The notes below the pieces were generated by a model. It made no database searches, was not told the origin of the DNA, and was given only the letters and a program-made list of their open reading frames with translations. A stretch of 64,000 bases of DNA, taken from assembly GCF_050320075.1 (NCBI RefSeq), contig NZ_CP190018.1, one strand, 5' to 3'. The stretch comes from Escherichia coli (GTDB lineage: Bacteria; Pseudomonadota; Gammaproteobacteria; Enterobacterales; Enterobacteriaceae). This document shows positions 19,658 to 62,752 of the stretch, piece by piece. The translations under genes were made by a program, and so were the position numbers. The number at the start of each line of letters is the position of its first letter. Position 1 is the first letter of the stretch.

Positions 19658-20245
19658 ATGCCCAAATTGGGGATGCAGTCGATCCGGCGCAGACAACTGA
19701 TCGACGCCACGCTGGAAGCAATAAATGAAGTGGGCATGCACGATGCAACGATCGCGCAGATCGCCCGCCGTGCAGGCGTTTCTACGGGGATCATCAGCCA
19801 CTATTTCAGGGACAAAAATGGTCTGCTGGAAGCAACCATGCGCGATATCACCAGTCAGCTGCGTGACGCGGTTTTGAATCGATTACATGCACTTCCGCAG
19901 GGCAGTGCAGAGCAGCGATTATAGGCGATTGTTGACGGGAATTTCGATGAAACGCAGGTCAGTAATGCTGCGATGAAAGCCTGGTTGGCGTTTTGGGCCA
20001 GCAGTATGCATCAGCCAATGCTTTACCGTTTGCAGCAGGTGAGCAGCCGCCGCTTGTTGTCGAATCTGGTGAGCGAATTTCACCGCGAGTTACCGCGCCA
20101 ACAGGCACAGGAAGCGGGCTACGGCCTTGCCGCGCTGATTGACGGATTATGGCTGCGCGCGGCACTGAGCGGCAAACCGCTGGATAAACCTCTCGCACAC
20201 TCGCTGACCCGTCACTTTATTACTCAGCATTTACCCACCGATTAA
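19658..20245 (+). pseudogene. betI: betI (TetR-family repressor) with an in-frame TAG at codon 89
   Basis: [50 protein letters not shown]...SAEQRL, then TAG (19922-19924). The same frame continues [24 protein letters not shown]...HLPTD, and the total span is 195 codons, as in BetI. Confidence 0.85.
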
Positions 20246-45985: not shown

Positions 45986-46035
45986 TTCAAAATTCGACGA
46001 ATTAACGATATTTGTCTGATTAATAATCAGACCGG

Positions 46036-46073
46036 ATTAATGTTGGTGTATTTATTACACCAGCATTAATTTT
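46036..46073 (+). terminator. ykgMO rho-independent terminator
   Basis: A 15-bp stem (one G-U pair) ATTAATGTTGGTGTA/TACACCAGCATTAAT with loop tttat, followed by TTT. Confidence 0.7.
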
Positions 46074-46391
46074 CCTGGGGATGTATCTTCCTGTTCATTT
46101 AAAGTCAACTGCCTGACGTTTCTCTCCGAATATTCCATTATATTAATGTTGACTTGTTGACCAGGTGCGCCCTGTATGCTGGCATCAACTCTCTTTTAGA
46201 CTGAACACGCCACTCAGTTTCCTCCCTTTGCGACGCAGCCTGCATTTACACTCAAACGGTTAAGATGATAAATGTGGTAAATCTGTTGGTACTGACATAA
46301 AAACGTTTACGCCACAGGAACGGCCTGATCCACCGGTAACCCCATCGCCGACGTTCGAGTGCCAGTTAGAGTAACGCGCACAGATGACTGA

Positions 46392-55366: not shown

Positions 55367-55771
55367 ATCTACCCTGCTTGTACCATTATGTTATACACCT
55401 CTTCAGGAGTATTCATAAAATAAGACAAATGTAAAGAACTGTATTGTTTTGTATAATGCAATGGTGACTAATCGCCAATGAATATAAGCACCATCATTTC
55501 TCCCTATTTTTATATTAAAAGTGACAACGATTTACAGGGTGATGCTGAGCTGACAATCACAGGTTTCCTTATCGGTTTTTGCATCGCACAACTAAAGCAA
55601 TAAACTAGCTCCCGTCATCGGCGAATATGAATTAATTAGCCGGGCTCATAGCTGCATTCGCGTTTTAAGAATAATCCTCCTGCTCTCACCGACTATGCTT
55701 AACGTTTAAAAAAGCATCAGCACTCTCGCAACGCACTCTTATTTTCCCCTTTAGAATACCGGAGGCCTGGT

Positions 55772-56461
55772 ATGAGCAACCAAGGCGAATACCCCGAAGA
55801 TAATCGGGTTGGGAAGCACGAGCCGCACGATTTTAGTTTGACCCGTCGCGATCTGATTAAAGTCAGCGCCGCAACGGCGGCGACCGCCGTGGTTTATCCT
55901 CATTCTACGCTTGCGGCAAGCGTTCCGGCAGCTACACCCGCGCCAGAGATAATGCCCCTGACACTTAAGGTGAACGGCAAAACCGAGCAGTTGGACGTTG
56001 ATACCCGAACCACGCTACTGGACGCTTTGCGTGAAAATCTGCATCTGATCGGTACCAAGAAAGGTTGCGATCACGGACAGTGCGGAGCCTGTACCGTGCT
56101 GGTCAATGGTCGAAGGCTTAATGCCTGCCTGACGCTTGCAGTCATGCATCAGGGGGCCGAGATCACCACCATTGAAGGCCTGGGTTCACCAGAGAATCTT
56201 CACCCCATGCAGGCGGCCTTTATCAAGCATGATGGCTTCCAGTGCGGCTACTGCACCTCCGGGCAAATTTGCTCATCAGTAGCGGTGCTAAAAGAGATTC
56301 AGGACGGCATTCCCAGTCACGTCACGGTCGATTTGGTTTCCCCTCCAGAAAGAACGGCCGATGAGATCCGTGAACGTATGAGCGGCAACATCTGTCGCTG
56401 TGGTGCATACGCTAACATCCTTGCCGCCATTGAAGACGCTGCGGGGGAGATAAAATCATGA
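55772..56461 (+). CDS. paoA: Periplasmic aldehyde oxidoreductase 2Fe-2S subunit with Tat signal, 229 aa
   Basis: Tat motif LTRRDLIK. Cluster motifs [11 protein letters not shown] and CGYCTSGQ. Confidence 0.95.
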
Positions 56462-59205
56462 AGGCGTTTACCTATGAACGTGTGAACACCCCGGCCGAGG
56501 CGGCACTTAGCGCTCAGCGCGTACCTGGCGCAAAATTTATCGCTGGCGGGACCAATCTGCTGGACCTGATGAAGCTGGAAATTGAAACGCCAACCCACCT
56601 TATCGATGTGAACGGGCTCGGGCTCGATAAGATTGAAGTGACCGACGCGGGTGGGCTGCGCATCGGCGCACTGGTACGGAACACCGACCTGGCGGCTCAC
56701 GAGCGCGTGCGTCGTGATTACGCGGTACTCTCCCGCGCCCTGCTCGCTGGCGCGTCTGGTCAGTTACGCAATCAGGCAACCACCGCAGGTAATCTGCTCC
56801 AGCGCACGCGCTGCCCCTATTTTTACGACACCAATCAGCCCTGCAATAAGCGCCTGCCCGGGAGCGGCTGCGCGGCACTTGAAGGCTTTAGCCGTCAGCA
56901 CGCGGTGGTAGGCGTAAGCGAAGCCTGCATTGCCACCCATCCGAGCGATATGGCGGTCGCAATGCGGTTGCTGGATGCGGTGGTGGAAACCATCACGCCG
57001 GAGGGAAAGACTCGCAGTATCACACTGGCTGATTTTTATCACCCTCCGGGAAAAACGCCGCACATTGAAACCGCCCTGCTTCCCGGTGAGCTTATCGTTG
57101 CGGTGACGTTACCTCCGCCGCTCGGCGGAAAACATATCTACCGCAAGGTGCGCGATCGCGCCTCCTACGCCTTTGCCCTGGTATCGGTCGCGGCGATTAT
57201 TCAGCCTGACGGCAGCGGGCGCGTCGCGCTGGGCGTACTGGCTGTCATTACCGCCAGTAACGCCGGGGCACTCGGCAAAGGCGACAAAAACACCGCCAGG
57301 CTGTTAGGCGGCCCCACTATTGAACACTATCATCAGGCCATTGCGCTGGTAGTGGCCGAGACCTTCGAACAGGCGCGAGCGGCGGCCTCGCTGGTGCAGG
57401 CGCACTATCGCCGTAATAAAGGAGCTTACTCCCTGGCGGACGAGAAACAGGCCGTCAGTCAGCCGCCGGAAGACACGCCCGATAAAAATGTTGGTGACTT
57501 TGACGGGGCTTTCACCTCCGCTGCGGTGAAGATTGATGCTACCTACACGACCCCGGACCAGAGCCATATGGCGATGGAGCCGCATGCCTCGATGGCCGTC
57601 TGGGATGGAAATAAGCTTACCCTCTGGACCTCAAATCAGATGATTGACTGGTGCCGCACCGATCTGGCAAAAACGCTGAAAGTGCCCGTGGAGAATGTGC
57701 GTATTATCTCCCCGTATATCGGCGGAGGGTTTGGCGGCAAGCTGTTCCTGAGAAGCGATGCGCTGCTGGCGGCCCTCGCCGCCCGTGCGGTGAAACGTCC
57801 GGTTAAAGTGATGCTCCCCCGCCCCACTATTCCCAATAACACCACGCACCGCCCCGCCACCCTTCAGCACTTGCGTATCGGTACTGACCAGAGCGGGAAA
57901 ATCACCGCTATCTCACATGAAAGCTGGTCCGGAAACCTGCCCGGCGGCACGCCGGAAACGGCGGTACAGCAAAGCGAATTTCTTTACGCAGGGGCGAATC
58001 GTCATACCGGCCTGCGGCTCGCCATGCTTGATTTGCCGGAAGGGAACGCCATGCGTGCGCCCGGCGAAGCCCCCGGTCTGATGGCGCTCGAAATCGCGAT
58101 CGATGAACTGGCGGAAAAAGCGGGCATCGATCCCGTCGAGTTTCGCATCCTGAATGACACTCAGGTTGACCCCGCCGATCCGACGCGCCGCTTCTCTCGC
58201 CGTCAGCTTATCGAGTGCTTGCGCACCGGAGCGGATAAATTTGGCTGGAAGCAGCGCAACGCCACACCCGGACAGGTACGCGACGGGGAGTGGCTAGTCG
58301 GCCACGGTGTTGCGGCGGGCTTTCGCAATAATCTGCTGGAAAAATCGGGTGCGTGGGTTCACCTGGAGCAAAACGGCACCGTTACCGTGGAAACGGACAT
58401 GACCGATATTGGCACTGGCAGCTACACCATTCTGGCCCAGACGGCAGCGGAAATGCTTGGCGTACCGCTGGAGCAGGTTGCGGTTCACCTCGGCGATTCC
58501 AGTTTCCCGGTTTCTGCGGGGTCTGGTGGACAATGGGGCGCGAATACCTCCACCTCCGGCGTTTACGCCGCCTGTGTGAAGCTTCGCGAAATGATTGCCT
58601 CGGCAGTCGGGTTTGATCCTGAGCAGTCGCAGTTTGCCGACGGCAAGATTACCAACGGTACCCGAAGCGCCACGCTACATGAGGCCACCGCAGGCGGCAG
58701 ACTGACAGCGGAAGAGAGCATTGAATTCGGAATACTGAGCAAGGAGTACCAGCAATCGACCTTTGCCGGGCATTTTGTGGAGGTCGGCGTGCATAGCGCG
58801 ACGGGAGAAGTTCGGGTCCGGCGTATGCTCGCCGTGTGCGCAGCGGGGCGCATTCTGAATCCGAAAACTGCACGCAGCCAGGTCATTGGCGCGATGACTA
58901 TGGGCATGGGCGCGGCACTGATGGAGGAGCTGGCGGTAGATGACCGTTTGGGCTACTTCGTTAATCACGATATGGCGGGGTATGAAGTGCCGGTTCATGC
59001 GGATATCCCAAAACAGGAGGTGATTTTCCTGGATGATACCGACCCCATCTCCTCCCCGATGAAGGCCAAAGGTGTCGGTGAGCTGGGCCTGTGCGGCGTG
59101 AGCGCGGCTATCGCCAACGCGGTGTATAACGCCACCGGTATTCGGGTACGGGATTATCCCATCACTCTGGATAAGCTGCTCGATAAGCTGCCGGATGTGG
59201 TTTAA
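56458..59205 (+). CDS. paoB/paoC: Single 915-aa ORF: PaoB (FAD subunit) N-terminal ~259 aa fused in frame to PaoC (molybdopterin subunit) lacking its N-terminus
   Basis: It begins [15 protein letters not shown]...[14 protein letters not shown] (PaoB). It switches at ...[22 protein letters not shown]... (nt ~57232-57237) and ends ...[14 protein letters not shown] (PaoC C-terminus). Confidence 0.8.
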
Positions 59206-59214
59206 GGAGGAACA

Positions 59215-60168
59215 ATGTCATACTCGCTTTTTGACAAAGACGAGCACTGGCATAAGCCAGAGCAGGCGTTTCTCACCGATGACCACCGGGCCATTCTGCG
59301 CTTCGCCGTAGAGGCGCTAATGTCCAGTAAAGGAGCGGTGCTGGTGACGCTGGTGGAAATACGCGGCGGCGCGGCGCGCCCGCTCGGGGCGCAGATGGTG
59401 GTGCGCGAAGATGGTCATTACTGCGGTTTTGTCTCTGGCGGCTGCGTGGAGGCCGCTGCCGCTTTTGAAGCGCTGGAGATGATGGGCTCAGGCCGCGATC
59501 GCGAAATTCGCTATGGTGAAGGTTCGCCGTGGTTTGACATCGTTCTGCCCTGCGGCGGTGGGATCACGCTGACGCTCCATAAACTACGCTCGGCACAACC
59601 TCTGCTCGCCGTGCTGAACCGCCTGGAACAGAGAAAACCGGCGGGTCTGCGCTACGATCCGCAAGCACAATCGTTGGTGTGCCTGCCCACGCAAACCCGG
59701 ACGGGCTGGAATCTCAATGGCTTTGAGGTGGGGTTCAGACCATGCGTCAGGCTGATGATTTACGGACGTTCTCTTGAGGCGCAGGCAACCGCGAGTCTTG
59801 CAGCAGCCACAGGCTATGACAGCCATATCTTCGATCTTTTTCCGGCCTCAGCCAGCGCTCAGATCGATACCGATACGGCGGTCATTTTGCTGTGCCATGA
59901 TCTCAACCGGGAACTGCCAGTGTTGCAGGCCGCGCGAGAAGCAAAACCCTTTTATCTCGGCGCATTGGGCAGCTATCGAACCCACACTTTACGTCTGCAA
60001 AAGCTCCACGAGCTGGGATGGTCCAGGGAGGAGACAGAGCAAATCCGGGCACCTGTCGGGATATTCCCCAAAGCCCGGGATGCGCATACTCTGGCCCTTT
60101 CCGTACTGGCAGAAGTCGCCGCTGTACGTCTCCGTCAGGAGGATTCATGCCTGCCCCCATCGTCCTGA
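59215..60168 (+). CDS. paoD: XdhC-family molybdenum cofactor insertion chaperone, 317 aa
   Basis: Sequence and synteny recognised. SD GGAGGA upstream. Confidence 0.9.
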   Translation: MSYSLFDKDEHWHKPEQAFLTDDHRAILRFAVEALMSSKGAVLVTLVEIRGGAARPLGAQMVVREDGHYCGFVSGGCVEAAAAFEALEMMGSGRDREIRYGEGSPWFDIVLPCGGGITLTLHKLRSAQPLLAVLNRLEQRKPAGLRYDPQAQSLVCLPTQTRTGWNLNGFEVGFRPCVRLMIYGRSLEAQATASLAAATGYDSHIFDLFPASASAQIDTDTAVILLCHDLNRELPVLQAAREAKPFYLGALGSYRTHTLRLQKLHELGWSREETEQIRAPVGIFPKARDAHTLALSVLAEVAAVRLRQEDSCLPPSS

Positions 60169-60254
60169 TCCTCGCGGCGGGGCGTGGGGAGCGCTTCCTC
60201 ACCTCCGGGGGAAATACCCATAAATTAAGAGAAAAATCTGCAGTAGCCGTTTAA
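60147..60254 (+). pseudogene. Remnant of a MobA/MocA-like nucleotidyltransferase gene (first ~27 codons only)
   Basis: ATG at 60147 follows AGGAGG and overlaps the paoD end. MPAPIVLILAAGRGERFLTSGG carries the LAAGxGxRF NTP-transferase motif. The frame then degenerates and stops at 60254. Confidence 0.5.
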
Positions 60255-60271
60255 GAAAATCACCTAAATCG

Positions 60272-60303
60272 TTTAAAAGAGCGCCCAACCCATAGTGGGC
60301 GCT
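60272..60303 (-). terminator. Terminator of the MFS transporter gene
   Basis: An 8-bp stem AGCGCCCA/TGGGCGCT followed on the minus strand by CTTTTAAA, ~45 nt past the stop. Confidence 0.6.
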
Positions 60304-60346
60304 TATCGCCTTGTGAAACTTATTCAGCAACGCGCGCCTCGCCGGA

Positions 60347-61540
60347 CTAAAGCGCACCGGCCTTCTGGCGTGCGGTAACAAAGGTCAGTACGCCAGCGCA
60401 AAGGAGCAGCACGCTACTCATAGCAAACGTGCTCTGCCAGCCAAGGCGGTCAAACACAATGCCTCCTGCCGTTGATCCAAGGGCGATGGCGAGCTGAATC
60501 ACCGCGACCATGAGCCCGCCTCCAGCTTCGGCGTTGTCAGGCAACGTACGCGCAATCCATGTCCACCATCCGGTTGGCGCGGCGGTGGCCAGCATGCCCC
60601 AGAGTCCTAACAGCAGCGAGACCGTCCAGACGTGATGCCCGGTAAGCATCAGACCGATGGCAATGACGGCCATCAGTCCGGGTATGGCCATCAGCGTGGG
60701 GTAGAATTTTCTGTTGAGAAATGCCGAAACAACCAGCGTGCCAATAAAACCGGCCACGCCGATAATCAGCAAAATCGACGACAAGCCTAAGGAATTAACC
60801 CGTGTCACCGACTCCAGAAACGGGCGCACATAGGTGAATAGCGCAAACTGCCCCATGAAAAACAGGCCACAAGCTATCATGCCGACCACAACCATGCGGC
60901 GGCTAAATAAGCGGAATACCGCGCCACATGAAGTGTGGCTTTTATTCGCATCCATGCTTGGCAGGCTGATGCACTGCCAGATAAAGGCGACAACCGCGAT
61001 GGGCACCAGGCACAAGAAAGCGCCTCGCCATCCGACCGTAGCCCCCAGATAGCTTCCCAGCGGTGCGGCCACGACCGTCGCCAGCGCATTACCGGCGTTG
61101 AAAATTGCCAGCGCACGCGTGACCTGATGCTGCGGCACCAGACGAATCGCCGTTGCCGCTGACATCGACCAGAATCCGCCAATAGCCACACCAATCATCG
61201 CACGACCGACCATATACATCAGATAACTGGAAGCCAGCGCAATAATAAGCCCCGATACGGCCATCAGAACCGTCATCCCCAGCTGCAGGAACTTACGATT
61301 CATCTTTCCAGCTAGCGTTGAAAGCGTCAGGCTGGTCAGAACCGCCAGCGCGCCGGAGATAGCAATCCCCTGCCCTGCCAGCCCCTCCGTCACGCCTAAA
61401 TCGCGGGTAATCGGCGTGAGCAGGCTGACGGGCATAAATTCAGAAGCAATCAGCACAAACACGCACAGGGTCATGGCAAAAATACCGCCCCAGTATGCGC
61501 GCTGATGATGAGGTGATAGTGTTTGGCTTAGTGTCGACAT
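60347..61540 (-). CDS. MFS transporter (397 aa, DHA1/sugar-efflux-like)
   Basis: Twelve-TM-like hydrophobic profile. N-terminus ...GGIFAMTLCVFVLIASEFMPVSLLTPI... is typical of the family. Confidence 0.9.
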   Translation of the reverse strand: MSTLSQTLSPHHQRAYWGGIFAMTLCVFVLIASEFMPVSLLTPITRDLGVTEGLAGQGIAISGALAVLTSLTLSTLAGKMNRKFLQLGMTVLMAVSGLIIALASSYLMYMVGRAMIGVAIGGFWSMSAATAIRLVPQHQVTRALAIFNAGNALATVVAAPLGSYLGATVGWRGAFLCLVPIAVVAFIWQCISLPSMDANKSHTSCGAVFRLFSRRMVVVGMIACGLFFMGQFALFTYVRPFLESVTRVNSLGLSSILLIIGVAGFIGTLVVSAFLNRKFYPTLMAIPGLMAVIAIGLMLTGHHVWTVSLLLGLWGMLATAAPTGWWTWIARTLPDNAEAGGGLMVAVIQLAIALGSTAGGIVFDRLGWQSTFAMSSVLLLCAGVLTFVTARQKAGAL

Positions 61541-61615: not shown

Positions 61616-62752
61616 TTATTTCAGTTTGGTCTGGAAAAATTGTTCGAACTTCGCGAAAGGTATTTTTCCGGCCACGTTATCGTACAGGTCCACGTGATTT
61701 GCCCCTGGTACCACCACCAACTCTTTGTCTTTACTGCCAACCGCCTTGTAAGCATCTTCAGCAAAATAGCGTGAATGTGCTTTCTCACCGGTCACAATCA
61801 GCGTCGGAATGGTGATTTCACTGGCGTAGCTCAACAGCGGCATATTCATAAATGACAGCGGCATCGTTGCCGTCCACGCCCCGGTAGAGTTAACGGAACG
61901 TTCGTGGAAGCCGCGCGGCATGCGATAGTAGTCAAAGAACTCTTTCAGTACCGGATGAGGATTTGCCGGCAGCGTTTCTGGCAGAATGCGCTCGCCCGCA
62001 CTGACCTTGCCGTTGCTGTCGACATTAATATCATGACCACCGTGAGCGAACGTTCCGCTCTGCGCATCCTTCCAGCGCTGTTCATTCAGATATTGCAGAA
62101 CAGCACGACGGTCGGCGGTAGAATAACGGTCTTTGCCATCCCCCACACCATGGCCCATCGCCCGGCTCATGTCATACATCACGCTGGTAGCTACCGCTTT
62201 AACGCGGGTATCCATCGCCGCGTCGTTCAGCGCCATGCCGCCCCAGCCACAAATACCGAGCAGCCCGATACGGTTGCGATCTACCTCTTTTTGCAGCCCT
62301 AAGAAATCCACTGCCGCGCTGAAATCTTCAGTGTTGATATCCGGTGAGGCGACGTTTCGCGGATAGCCGCCGCTTTCCCCGGTGTAAGAAGGATCGAACG
62401 CCAGGGTAACAAACCCTCGTTCCGCCAGCGTCTGCGCATACAGGCCGCTGGATTGCTCTTTCACCGCGCCAAATGGCCCACTGACCGCAATCGCCGCCAG
62501 CTTGCGATCGCCACGGTCTTTAGGCAGGTAAAGATCGCCCACTAAGGTGATGCCATATCGGTTCGGGAACGAGACTTTACGGTGATCGACTTTCTGGCTC
62601 TCGGCGAACGTTTTATCCCATTTATCTGTCATGGACACAGGGGCATTAGGATTGGTTGAATCAGCATAACTCATTGTCGTGACTCCACTTAATGATGCGA
62701 AAAGCAGCATGGTCGGCATCGCGGTTTTTAGCGTGCGGGTGAAGGCTTTCAT
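61616..62752 (-). CDS. Exported alpha/beta hydrolase with a Cys nucleophile elbow (378 aa), paralogue of 42414-43334
   Basis: Signal peptide MKAFTRTLKTAMPTMLLFASLSGVTTMSYA. Motifs IGLLGICGWGGMA and GANHVDLY. Confidence 0.8.
   Translation of the reverse strand: MKAFTRTLKTAMPTMLLFASLSGVTTMSYADSTNPNAPVSMTDKWDKTFAESQKVDHRKVSFPNRYGITLVGDLYLPKDRGDRKLAAIAVSGPFGAVKEQSSGLYAQTLAERGFVTLAFDPSYTGESGGYPRNVASPDINTEDFSAAVDFLGLQKEVDRNRIGLLGICGWGGMALNDAAMDTRVKAVATSVMYDMSRAMGHGVGDGKDRYSTADRRAVLQYLNEQRWKDAQSGTFAHGGHDINVDSNGKVSAGERILPETLPANPHPVLKEFFDYYRMPRGFHERSVNSTGAWTATMPLSFMNMPLLSYASEITIPTLIVTGEKAHSRYFAEDAYKAVGSKDKELVVVPGANHVDLYDNVAGKIPFAKFEQFFQTKLK

What the first reader, a model, noticed from the sequence alone, without database searches (positions are those of the whole stretch)
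57200..57270. In-frame deletion fuses the paoB and paoC subunit genes into one 915-aa ORF
ORF 56458-59205 starts as the FAD subunit PaoB ([15 protein letters not shown]..., [14 protein letters not shown]). At ...[35 protein letters not shown]... it continues as the molybdopterin subunit PaoC through to its normal C-terminus (...LDKLPDVV).

From memory, K-12 PaoB is 318 aa and PaoC is 732 aa. About 135 codons are therefore missing: the last ~59 residues of PaoB, the gene junction, and the first ~76 residues of PaoC.

The junction DNA (ctgGGCGTActg) is compatible with a microhomology-mediated deletion. I recall both parental sequences containing GGCG there.

The heterotrimer PaoABC is Tat-exported via PaoA. 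A covalently fused, truncated B-C polypeptide is either an inactive relic or an unusual natural fusion. paoA and paoD remain intact.
Basis: partly seen in the sequence, partly recalled or inferred. Interest (0 to 1): 0.6.

Follow-up and report, generated by a model that had tools for sequence, protein, structure and literature searches.

The report
Deletion-fused, inactivated paoB-paoC pseudogene
A 404-base deletion between two tiny repeats has welded two subunit genes of an E. coli periplasmic aldehyde-detoxifying enzyme into one open but crippled gene; it is a real, inherited marker of one clonal lineage (ST38/ST963) and most likely an ordinary pseudogene.

Summary
ORF 56458-59205 (+) encodes 915 aa: PaoB residues 1-259 joined directly to PaoC residues 77-732. 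Compared with intact alleles (K-12, C4, XJ6.1), exactly 404 bp are missing. The breakpoints lie in a 5-bp microhomology, GGGCG, inside imperfect 10-mers.

It is not an assembly artefact. The same junction is in 25 of 5426 complete E. coli genomes, and the exact protein is on 685 public contigs. The window itself is identical to strain YZLc1-3. Carriers with a published type are ST38 or ST963 (clonal complex 38, phylogroup D), and all carry one haplotype, so this was a single event.

The fusion has lost most of PaoB's C-terminal domain and the first 40 profile positions of PaoC's hammerhead domain, and it has no linker. Natural full-length FAD-Moco fusions found here keep all of these.

Later changes among carriers all alter the protein: two independent nonsense mutations, two small in-frame deletions and three missense changes, with none synonymous. 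PGAP already annotates both halves as partial pseudogenes.

Best reading: a lineage-specific loss of PaoABC through a microhomology-mediated deletion. The open frame is a one-in-three accident. Interest is low.

The parts
55772..56461 (+). paoA: intact [2Fe-2S] subunit with Tat signal peptide. Its stop overlaps the start of the fused ORF (ATGA).
   Evidence: One search gives the ORF. One search gives Pfam Fer2, Fer2_2 and TAT_signal. Searches give the same protein accession (WP_000070677.1) as in the intact strain C4.
56458..57235 (+). paoB remnant, codons 1-259. The FAD_binding_5 domain and the Cys-rich stretch are kept. Residues 260-318, most of the CO_deh_flav_C domain, are lost.
   Evidence: It matches PDB 5g5g_B residues 1-262.
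57231..57235 (+). Deletion junction: the single retained copy of the GGGCG microhomology. The breakpoint cannot be placed more precisely than these 5 bases. 404 bp are missing here.
   Evidence: The chance of 5 bp or more is 0.007. The 49-mer across the junction is in 25 of 5426 genomes.
57236..59205 (+). paoC remnant, codons 77-732 plus the stop. The a/b hammerhead domain lacks its first 40 profile positions. MoCoBD_1 and MoCoBD_2 are complete.
   Evidence: It matches PDB 5g5g_C residues 69-732.
59215..60168 (+). paoD: intact Moco-insertion chaperone, 317-aa allele.
   Evidence: XdhC_CoxI, XdhC_C. The 3' end of this allele is in 255 genomes, so it is a normal polymorphism.

Best explanation

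Origin: one microhomology-mediated deletion, either replication slippage or illegitimate recombination, between two GGGCG copies 404 bp apart. It removed paoB codons 260-318 with the stop, and paoC codons 1-76. paoC lies in the +2 frame relative to paoB, so the 404-bp loss happens to leave one continuous 915-aa (97.6 kDa) frame that is still translationally coupled to paoA.

Consequence (inferred): the product lacks most of PaoB's C-terminal domain and the start of PaoC's hammerhead domain, and it has no linker. It probably cannot form a native complex with PaoA. PaoA export by the Tat pathway needs both partners, so no active periplasmic enzyme would be made.

Spread: the allele arose once and is inherited within clonal complex 38 (ST38 and ST963). 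There it is now picking up further damaging mutations.

Shown: the deletion, its breakpoints, its distribution, the domain losses and the secondary lesions. Inferred: misfolding, lack of export and lack of activity.
For: Anatomy: establish the 404-bp gap and the fusion of PaoB 1-259 to PaoC 77-732, with GGGCG at both parental sites in K-12, C4 and XJ6.1. The microhomology is non-random (P = 0.007).

Real and inherited: the junction 49-mer is in 25 of 5426 complete genomes from many laboratories, hosts and countries. The deleted 404 bp is present in 3579 genomes and the locus in 3606. The exact protein is on 685 contigs.

Single origin: all carriers are within 1 SNP or a 3-6-bp indel of each other over 2.9 kb, whereas the nearest intact allele is 99.3% identical.

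Lineage: CE2050 and MS14384 are ST963 (PMC9429958, PMC10024524). MRSN346647 is ST38 (PMC8454413). Ecol_545 is close to an ST38 outbreak strain (bioRxiv 10.1101/850628).

Loss of function:
- The intact PaoB has a weak CO_deh_flav_C match at residues 228-301 (22.3 bits, below Pfam's 25.5-bit cut-off). The fusion has no match at all.
- The hammerhead match falls from profile positions 1-109 (85.9 bits) to 41-109 (47.4 bits).
- Natural 1042-1083-aa FAD-Moco fusions keep all five domains plus a linker, and they align across the gap.
- Secondary changes in the fused ORF are Q102* (TUM1886), Q808* plus a 3-bp deletion (Br_112), a 6-bp deletion (CE2050 group), C399Y, V881M and F239L. None is synonymous.
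- PGAP calls both halves partial pseudogenes.
- PaoA export is blocked when PaoB or PaoC is absent (PMC4273604).
- The pao locus is dispensable: megablast finds it absent from 1820 of 5426 genomes.
Against: The frame stays open in 23 of the 25 complete genomes, and paoA and paoD are intact, so a translated product is plausible and has not been excluded.

No activity, expression or structural data were available. The omics supplements for the carrier MS14384 held no pao entries.

The count of secondary mutations is small (5 SNPs and 2 indels). In very recent clonal divergence, an excess of non-synonymous changes is also seen in functional genes.

One of the two nonsense carriers, Br_112_kylling, comes from a visibly poor assembly.

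The six substitutions private to the deletion haplotype, relative to three intact alleles, are 4 synonymous and 2 missense. That is no sign of long neutral decay.
Confidence: 0.88

Rival explanations
1. The fusion is a functional neo-enzyme: a covalently linked FAD-Moco polypeptide that still assembles with PaoA, or works alone in the cytoplasm, and is kept by selection in CC38.
For: The frame is open and coupled to paoA. paoA and paoD are intact. The domain order FAD then Moco matches natural fusions and eukaryotic XDH (PMC3958847). The allele persists across ST38 and ST963 and is on 685 contigs.
Against: It lacks 135 residues of conserved domain core and has no linker, whereas natural fusions keep everything. 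Carriers show two independent nonsense mutations plus indels, and no synonymous changes. An open frame after the deletion has a 1-in-3 prior. Persistence is expected for a neutral marker in a clonal lineage.
Confidence: 0.04
2. Assembly or sequencing artefact: collapse of about 400 bp in this one record.
For: None beyond the prior possibility. The region contains short GC-rich repeats.
Against: The identical junction is in 25 independently assembled complete genomes made on several platforms and in several countries. The exact protein is on 685 contigs.
Confidence: 0.005
3. A recurrent hotspot: the same microhomology deletion arose independently several times, not once.
For: Carriers have two upstream flank haplotypes about 0.5% apart. 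Both GGGCG sites are conserved across E. coli.
Against: All carriers share one pao haplotype, within 1 SNP over 2.9 kb, which is 0.7% from the nearest intact allele. No genome outside this backbone has the junction, although 3579 genomes carry both repeats. Longer exact direct repeats (11 nt) in paoBC have not produced a comparably common deletion: only about 2 locus-bearing genomes lack both the junction and the segment. Recombination at the locus is documented (XJ6.1 and KY178) and can explain the mixed flanks.
Confidence: 0.04
4. Loss of PaoABC was positively selected in this extraintestinal pathogenic lineage (adaptive gene loss), not neutral.
For: The allele appears fixed in the sampled backbone, except for two genomes carrying a recombinant intact tract. 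Further hits in the same gene have followed.
Against: No test of selection was possible. A third of E. coli genomes lack the locus anyway, which fits simple dispensability. The window holds other unrelated pseudogenes (betI stop, IS150-split transporter gene, ykgL frameshift), which suggests general drift.
Confidence: 0.1

Closest known systems
E. coli K-12 PaoABC (YagTSR) periplasmic aldehyde oxidoreductase, PDB 5G5G/5G5H
   Same: Same operon (paoA-B-C-D), same genomic neighbourhood (ykgJ, yagU) and same cofactor domains. The fused ORF shows 56 SNPs against K-12 paoBC (about 98% nucleotide identity). The PDB chains B and C match residues 1-262 and 251-915 of the fused protein.
   Different: K-12 has separate PaoB (318 aa) and PaoC (732 aa). 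Here, 59 C-terminal residues of PaoB and 76 N-terminal residues of PaoC are deleted and the remnants are fused.
Natural single-chain FAD-Moco proteins of the xanthine oxidase family (P0018, P0019 and P0029 found here; eukaryotic XDH/AOX by established knowledge)
   Same: Same N-to-C order, FAD domain then Moco domain, in one polypeptide. They are 40-54% identical to the window protein. PMC3958847 describes the family-wide FeS-FAD-Moco order.
   Different: They are 1042-1083 aa long, have all five Pfam domains complete or nearly so, and have a linker of tens of residues. The window protein has a gap exactly across the end of CO_deh_flav_C, the linker and the start of the hammerhead domain.
Lineage-specific pseudogenes made by short-repeat (microhomology) deletions in enterobacteria
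   Same: One copy of a short direct repeat is left at the junction and no mobile element is involved. The lesion is inherited clonally, has acquired later secondary lesions, and is flagged as a pseudogene by PGAP.
   Different: By chance the reading frame stays open across two genes, so gene callers that do not compare lengths report a normal-looking 915-aa protein. That protein is deposited under PaoC and PaoB names.

Membership tests
Functional PaoABC-type (xanthine oxidase family) enzyme | FAD_binding_5 domain in the medium subunit | tested here: met
   PF00941 at residues 3-220, 138.8 bits.
Functional PaoABC-type (xanthine oxidase family) enzyme | C-terminal domain of the flavoprotein subunit (CO_deh_flav_C) | tested here: not met
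   The intact PaoB has a weak match at residues 228-301 (22.3 bits, below Pfam's 25.5-bit cut-off). The fused ORF has no match, and residues 260-318 are deleted.
Functional PaoABC-type (xanthine oxidase family) enzyme | Complete a/b hammerhead domain at the N-terminus of the Moco subunit | tested here: not met
   The intact protein matches profile positions 1-109 at 85.9 bits. The fusion matches only 41-109 at 47.4 bits.
Functional PaoABC-type (xanthine oxidase family) enzyme | Both molybdopterin-binding domains (MoCoBD_1, MoCoBD_2) | tested here: met
   200.8 and 191.9 bits.
Functional PaoABC-type (xanthine oxidase family) enzyme | Assembly with PaoA, Tat export and aldehyde-oxidising activity | not testable with these tools
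   Only literature applies: PaoA export needs both PaoB and PaoC (PMC4273604).
Natural single-chain FAD-Moco fusion | All domains of both subunits retained, joined by a linker | tested here: not met
   P0018, P0019 and P0029 have five domains plus a linker. The window protein is gapped across that region.
Pseudogene / gene remnant | Truncated relative to full-length family members and flagged by reference annotation | tested here: met
   PGAP notes 'incomplete; partial in the middle of a contig' for both halves in every carrier inspected, including the record identical to the window.
Pseudogene / gene remnant | Further disabling mutations accumulate in descendants | tested here: met
   Q102* in TUM1886, Q808* in Br_112, two in-frame indels, and no synonymous change among 5 SNPs. 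The sample is small and one of the assemblies is poor.
Pseudogene / gene remnant | No functional product | not testable with these tools
   No pao entries in the held omics supplements for the carrier MS14384.
Microhomology-mediated deletion | A short direct repeat at both parental breakpoints, with one copy kept in the product | tested here: met
   GGGCG is at both sites in K-12, C4 and XJ6.1, and one copy remains at 57231-57235.
Microhomology-mediated deletion | Microhomology longer than chance; no mobile element or foreign DNA at the junction | tested here: met
   P(5 bp or more) is 0.007 in simulation. The junction is made of parental sequence only.

The most novel reading that the evidence does not exclude
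The open 915-aa frame is not an accident. CC38 strains make a stable PaoB::PaoC chimera with some retained or altered redox function, or loss of periplasmic PaoABC was itself selected during the emergence of this extraintestinal pathogenic, multidrug-resistant lineage.
Probability: 0.06. Interest if true: 0.35.

Novelty: new member of a known kind. Interest (0 to 1): 0.12.

Why it matters
It matters little for biology in general. It adds one clean example of a microhomology deletion that disables a dispensable operon.

It has some practical uses:
- The 49-bp junction is a simple, specific marker. It is in 25 of 5426 complete genomes, and every carrier with a published type is ST38 or ST963, a clinically relevant lineage associated with ESBL and carbapenemase carriage.
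- The 915-aa product is deposited on hundreds of contigs under normal PaoB or PaoC names. It should be treated as a pseudogene product in pangenome and functional inference.
- CC38 strains are predicted to lack periplasmic aldehyde oxidoreductase activity.

Tried and rejected
1. Assembly collapse: rejected by the junction survey and the exact-protein look-up.

2. paoD also decaying, being one codon shorter: rejected. The 3' end of that allele is in 255 genomes, most of them with intact paoBC.

3. Long neutral decay on the deletion haplotype: not seen. The private substitutions are 4 synonymous and 2 missense.

4. The deletion used the best available repeat: rejected. Exact 11-nt direct repeats exist elsewhere in paoBC. 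The junction repeat is only 5 bp exact, or 9 of 10 over the 10-mer.

5. An IS element in the Br_112 pao promoter as further decay: a 1208-bp insert with a 9-bp duplication begins like IS10, but the sequence is garbled with homopolymer runs. I treat that assembly as unreliable.

6. The probe for the C399Y SNP was typed before I read the window and had two unintended mismatches. Its 31-nt exact core still discriminated (8 genomes), and the other four one-SNP carriers were then read directly.

7. The PaoABC structure paper (ACS Chem Biol 2016) is not held, so residue-level contacts of the deleted segments could not be cited.

8. Omics supplements for MS14384 held no pao entries.

9. No structure prediction was run. 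AlphaFold is insensitive to destabilising deletions, and the tool returns no coordinates from which to measure the distance between PaoB residue 259 and PaoC residue 77.

10. A literature search for a prior description of the lesion found nothing.

Full report
**Observation**

The window holds an ORF at 56458-59205 (+) of 915 aa. Its N-terminal part is PaoB-like and its C-terminal part is PaoC-like. The join is ...[15 protein letters not shown]..., at DNA ctgGGCGTActg, 57228-57239.

Pfam finds FAD_binding_5 (residues 3-220), a partial a/b hammerhead (residues 257-320, profile positions 41-109 only), MoCoBD_1 and MoCoBD_2. There is no CO_deh_flav_C match. PDB chains 5g5g_B and 5g5g_C (PaoB and PaoC) match residues 1-262 and 251-915.

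**Exact lesion**

I aligned the window to the intact allele of strain C4 (L002) and later to K-12 MG1655, C4 and XJ6.1 together. In all of these, PaoB is 318 aa and PaoC is 732 aa, and the window lacks exactly 404 bp.

The left parental sequence reads ...GTCGCGCTGGGCGGAGTAGC.... The right parental sequence reads ...AAAGCGCCGGGCGTACTGGC.... The product keeps one GGGCG (57231-57235). The repeat extends to GCGC[T/C]GGGCG, 9 of 10 bases.

The fusion is PaoB 1-259 plus PaoC 77-732, which gives 259 + 656 = 915 aa. paoB and paoC overlap by ATGA, so paoC is in the +2 frame relative to paoB, and a deletion of 404 bp (2 mod 3) closes the frame.

In a simulation of 200,000 random deletions in this sequence, 5 bp or more of junction microhomology occurred in 0.7%, and in-frame B-C joins in 34%. 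So the microhomology is informative about mechanism, and the open frame is not remarkable. Longer exact direct repeats (11 nt) exist elsewhere in paoBC, so this site is not a unique hotspot.

**Real, not an artefact**

The probe was a 49-mer across the junction, built so that neither half can seed megablast alone. It hits 25 of 5426 complete E. coli genomes, all at 100% identity. The deleted 404 bp is present in 3579 genomes, and the locus in 3606.

The exact 915-aa protein is in the public protein collection on 685 contigs, under the names PaoC or PaoB. The window itself is identical over all 64,000 bases to E. coli YZLc1-3, NZ_CP123240.1:3895582-3959581.

**Lineage and origin**

Published types place the carriers in clonal complex 38, phylogroup D:
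- CE2050 and MS14384 are ST963 (PMC9429958; PMC10024524).
- MRSN346647 is ST38 (PMC8454413).
- Ecol_545 is a close match to an ST38 outbreak strain (bioRxiv 10.1101/850628).

Over the 2.9-kb pao segment, all carriers are within one SNP or a 3-6-bp indel of the window. The nearest intact allele is 99.3% identical. That points to a single event.

The 24.7-kb upstream flank shows two haplotypes among carriers, at about 100% and about 99.5% identity. Two non-carriers, XJ6.1 and JNEC-KY178, share the window's flank. In those two, a 5.1-kb tract (window 56194-61284, 90 SNPs) is divergent and carries intact paoBC, while both sides are identical to the window. Homologous recombination has therefore shuffled alleles at this locus. 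I did not test whether every CC38 genome carries the deletion.

**Function**

The intact PaoB has a weak CO_deh_flav_C match at residues 228-301 (22.3 bits, below Pfam's 25.5-bit cut-off). The intact PaoC has a full hammerhead match at residues 34-137. The deletion removes PaoB 260-318 and PaoC 1-76. That is most of the first domain and the first 40 profile positions of the second, and no linker is left between the remnants.

An exhaustive HMMER search with the fused protein found three natural long proteins: P0018 (1083 aa), P0019 (1049 aa) and P0029 (1042 aa). All three have all five Pfam domains. In P0019 and P0029 the hammerhead match is complete, and in P0018 it covers profile positions 15-107. 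They also have a linker of tens of residues between the halves. In the alignment, the window protein is gapped exactly across that region. So covalent FAD-Moco fusion is a known architecture, also in line with the family-wide FeS-FAD-Moco order (PMC3958847). The working versions keep what this one has lost.

PaoA export through Tat is blocked if PaoB or PaoC is missing (PMC4273604). A misassembled fusion is therefore expected to give no periplasmic enzyme. This step is inference.

**Decay after the deletion**

I read nine carrier chromosomes directly and assigned the rest by identical BLAST scores. The changes in the fused ORF are:
- a 6-bp slip in GGGCTCGGGCTC (ΔGL52-53; CE2050 read directly, 4 more genomes by score);
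- a 3-bp deletion plus Q808* (Br_112_kylling, both copies);
- C399Y, which is PaoC Cys216 (8 genomes);
- Q102* (TUM1886);
- V881M (2 genomes);
- F239L (1 genome).

None is synonymous. paoA has no change, and paoD has one missense change in strain Ch1. Two independent stops within one clonal complex fit relaxed constraint, though the numbers are small and the Br_112 assembly is poor.

PGAP annotates paoB and paoC as partial pseudogenes in every carrier examined. The locus is also absent from 1820 of 5426 complete genomes, so it is dispensable.

Two points against strong claims: the frame is still open in 23 of 25 genomes, and the six substitutions private to the haplotype are 4 synonymous and 2 missense.

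**Verdict**

It is a lineage-specific pseudogene made by a microhomology-mediated deletion. It is already flagged as such by reference annotation, but I found no description of it in the searchable literature. It is useful as a CC38 marker and as an annotation caveat, and it is not biologically surprising.

Noticed in passing
window 1-64000: The whole window is base-for-base identical to E. coli YZLc1-3 (chicken faeces, Yangzhou), chromosome NZ_CP123240.1:3895582-3959581.
   Followed up: yes
window 19658-20245 (+): betI, the repressor of the bet choline-to-glycine-betaine genes, has an internal stop at codon 89. PGAP marks it as a pseudogene, while betT, betB and betA look intact. This might derepress the bet operon.
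   Followed up: partly
window 3416-5849: An IS150 (IS3 family) copy at about 4261-5630 splits a substrate-binding protein gene of a sugar / AI-2-type ABC transporter into two pseudogene fragments.
   Followed up: no
window 46020-46245 (-): ykgL is annotated as frameshifted.
   Followed up: no
window 56194-61284 versus L003 (XJ6.1) and L004 (JNEC-KY178): Two genomes have flanks identical to the window but carry a 5.1-kb divergent tract (90 SNPs) with intact paoBC. This is a clean recombination patch spanning the 3' end of paoA through the MFS transporter gene. The direction is unresolved: repair of the pseudogene, or import of the deleted allele.
   Followed up: partly
L006 783-1990 and L007 (Br_112_kylling): A 1208-bp insert lies about 70 bp upstream of paoA, with a 9-bp duplication of window 55696-55704. 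It starts like the IS10 end (recognised from memory, not tested) but is full of homopolymer runs. A linear 58.7-kb 'plasmid p2' record ends inside paoB and duplicates the chromosomal locus. Both point to a poorly polished or misassembled genome.
   Followed up: partly
window 62288 versus L001 (strain Ch1): Ch1 has a 1-bp indel that frameshifts the alpha/beta hydrolase gene downstream of pao. In the window, that gene (61616-62674, - strand) is intact.
   Followed up: partly
pao locus, survey of complete genomes: Megablast finds the paoABCD region absent from 1820 of 5426 complete E. coli genomes. Fifteen matching places lie on records labelled as plasmids.
   Followed up: no
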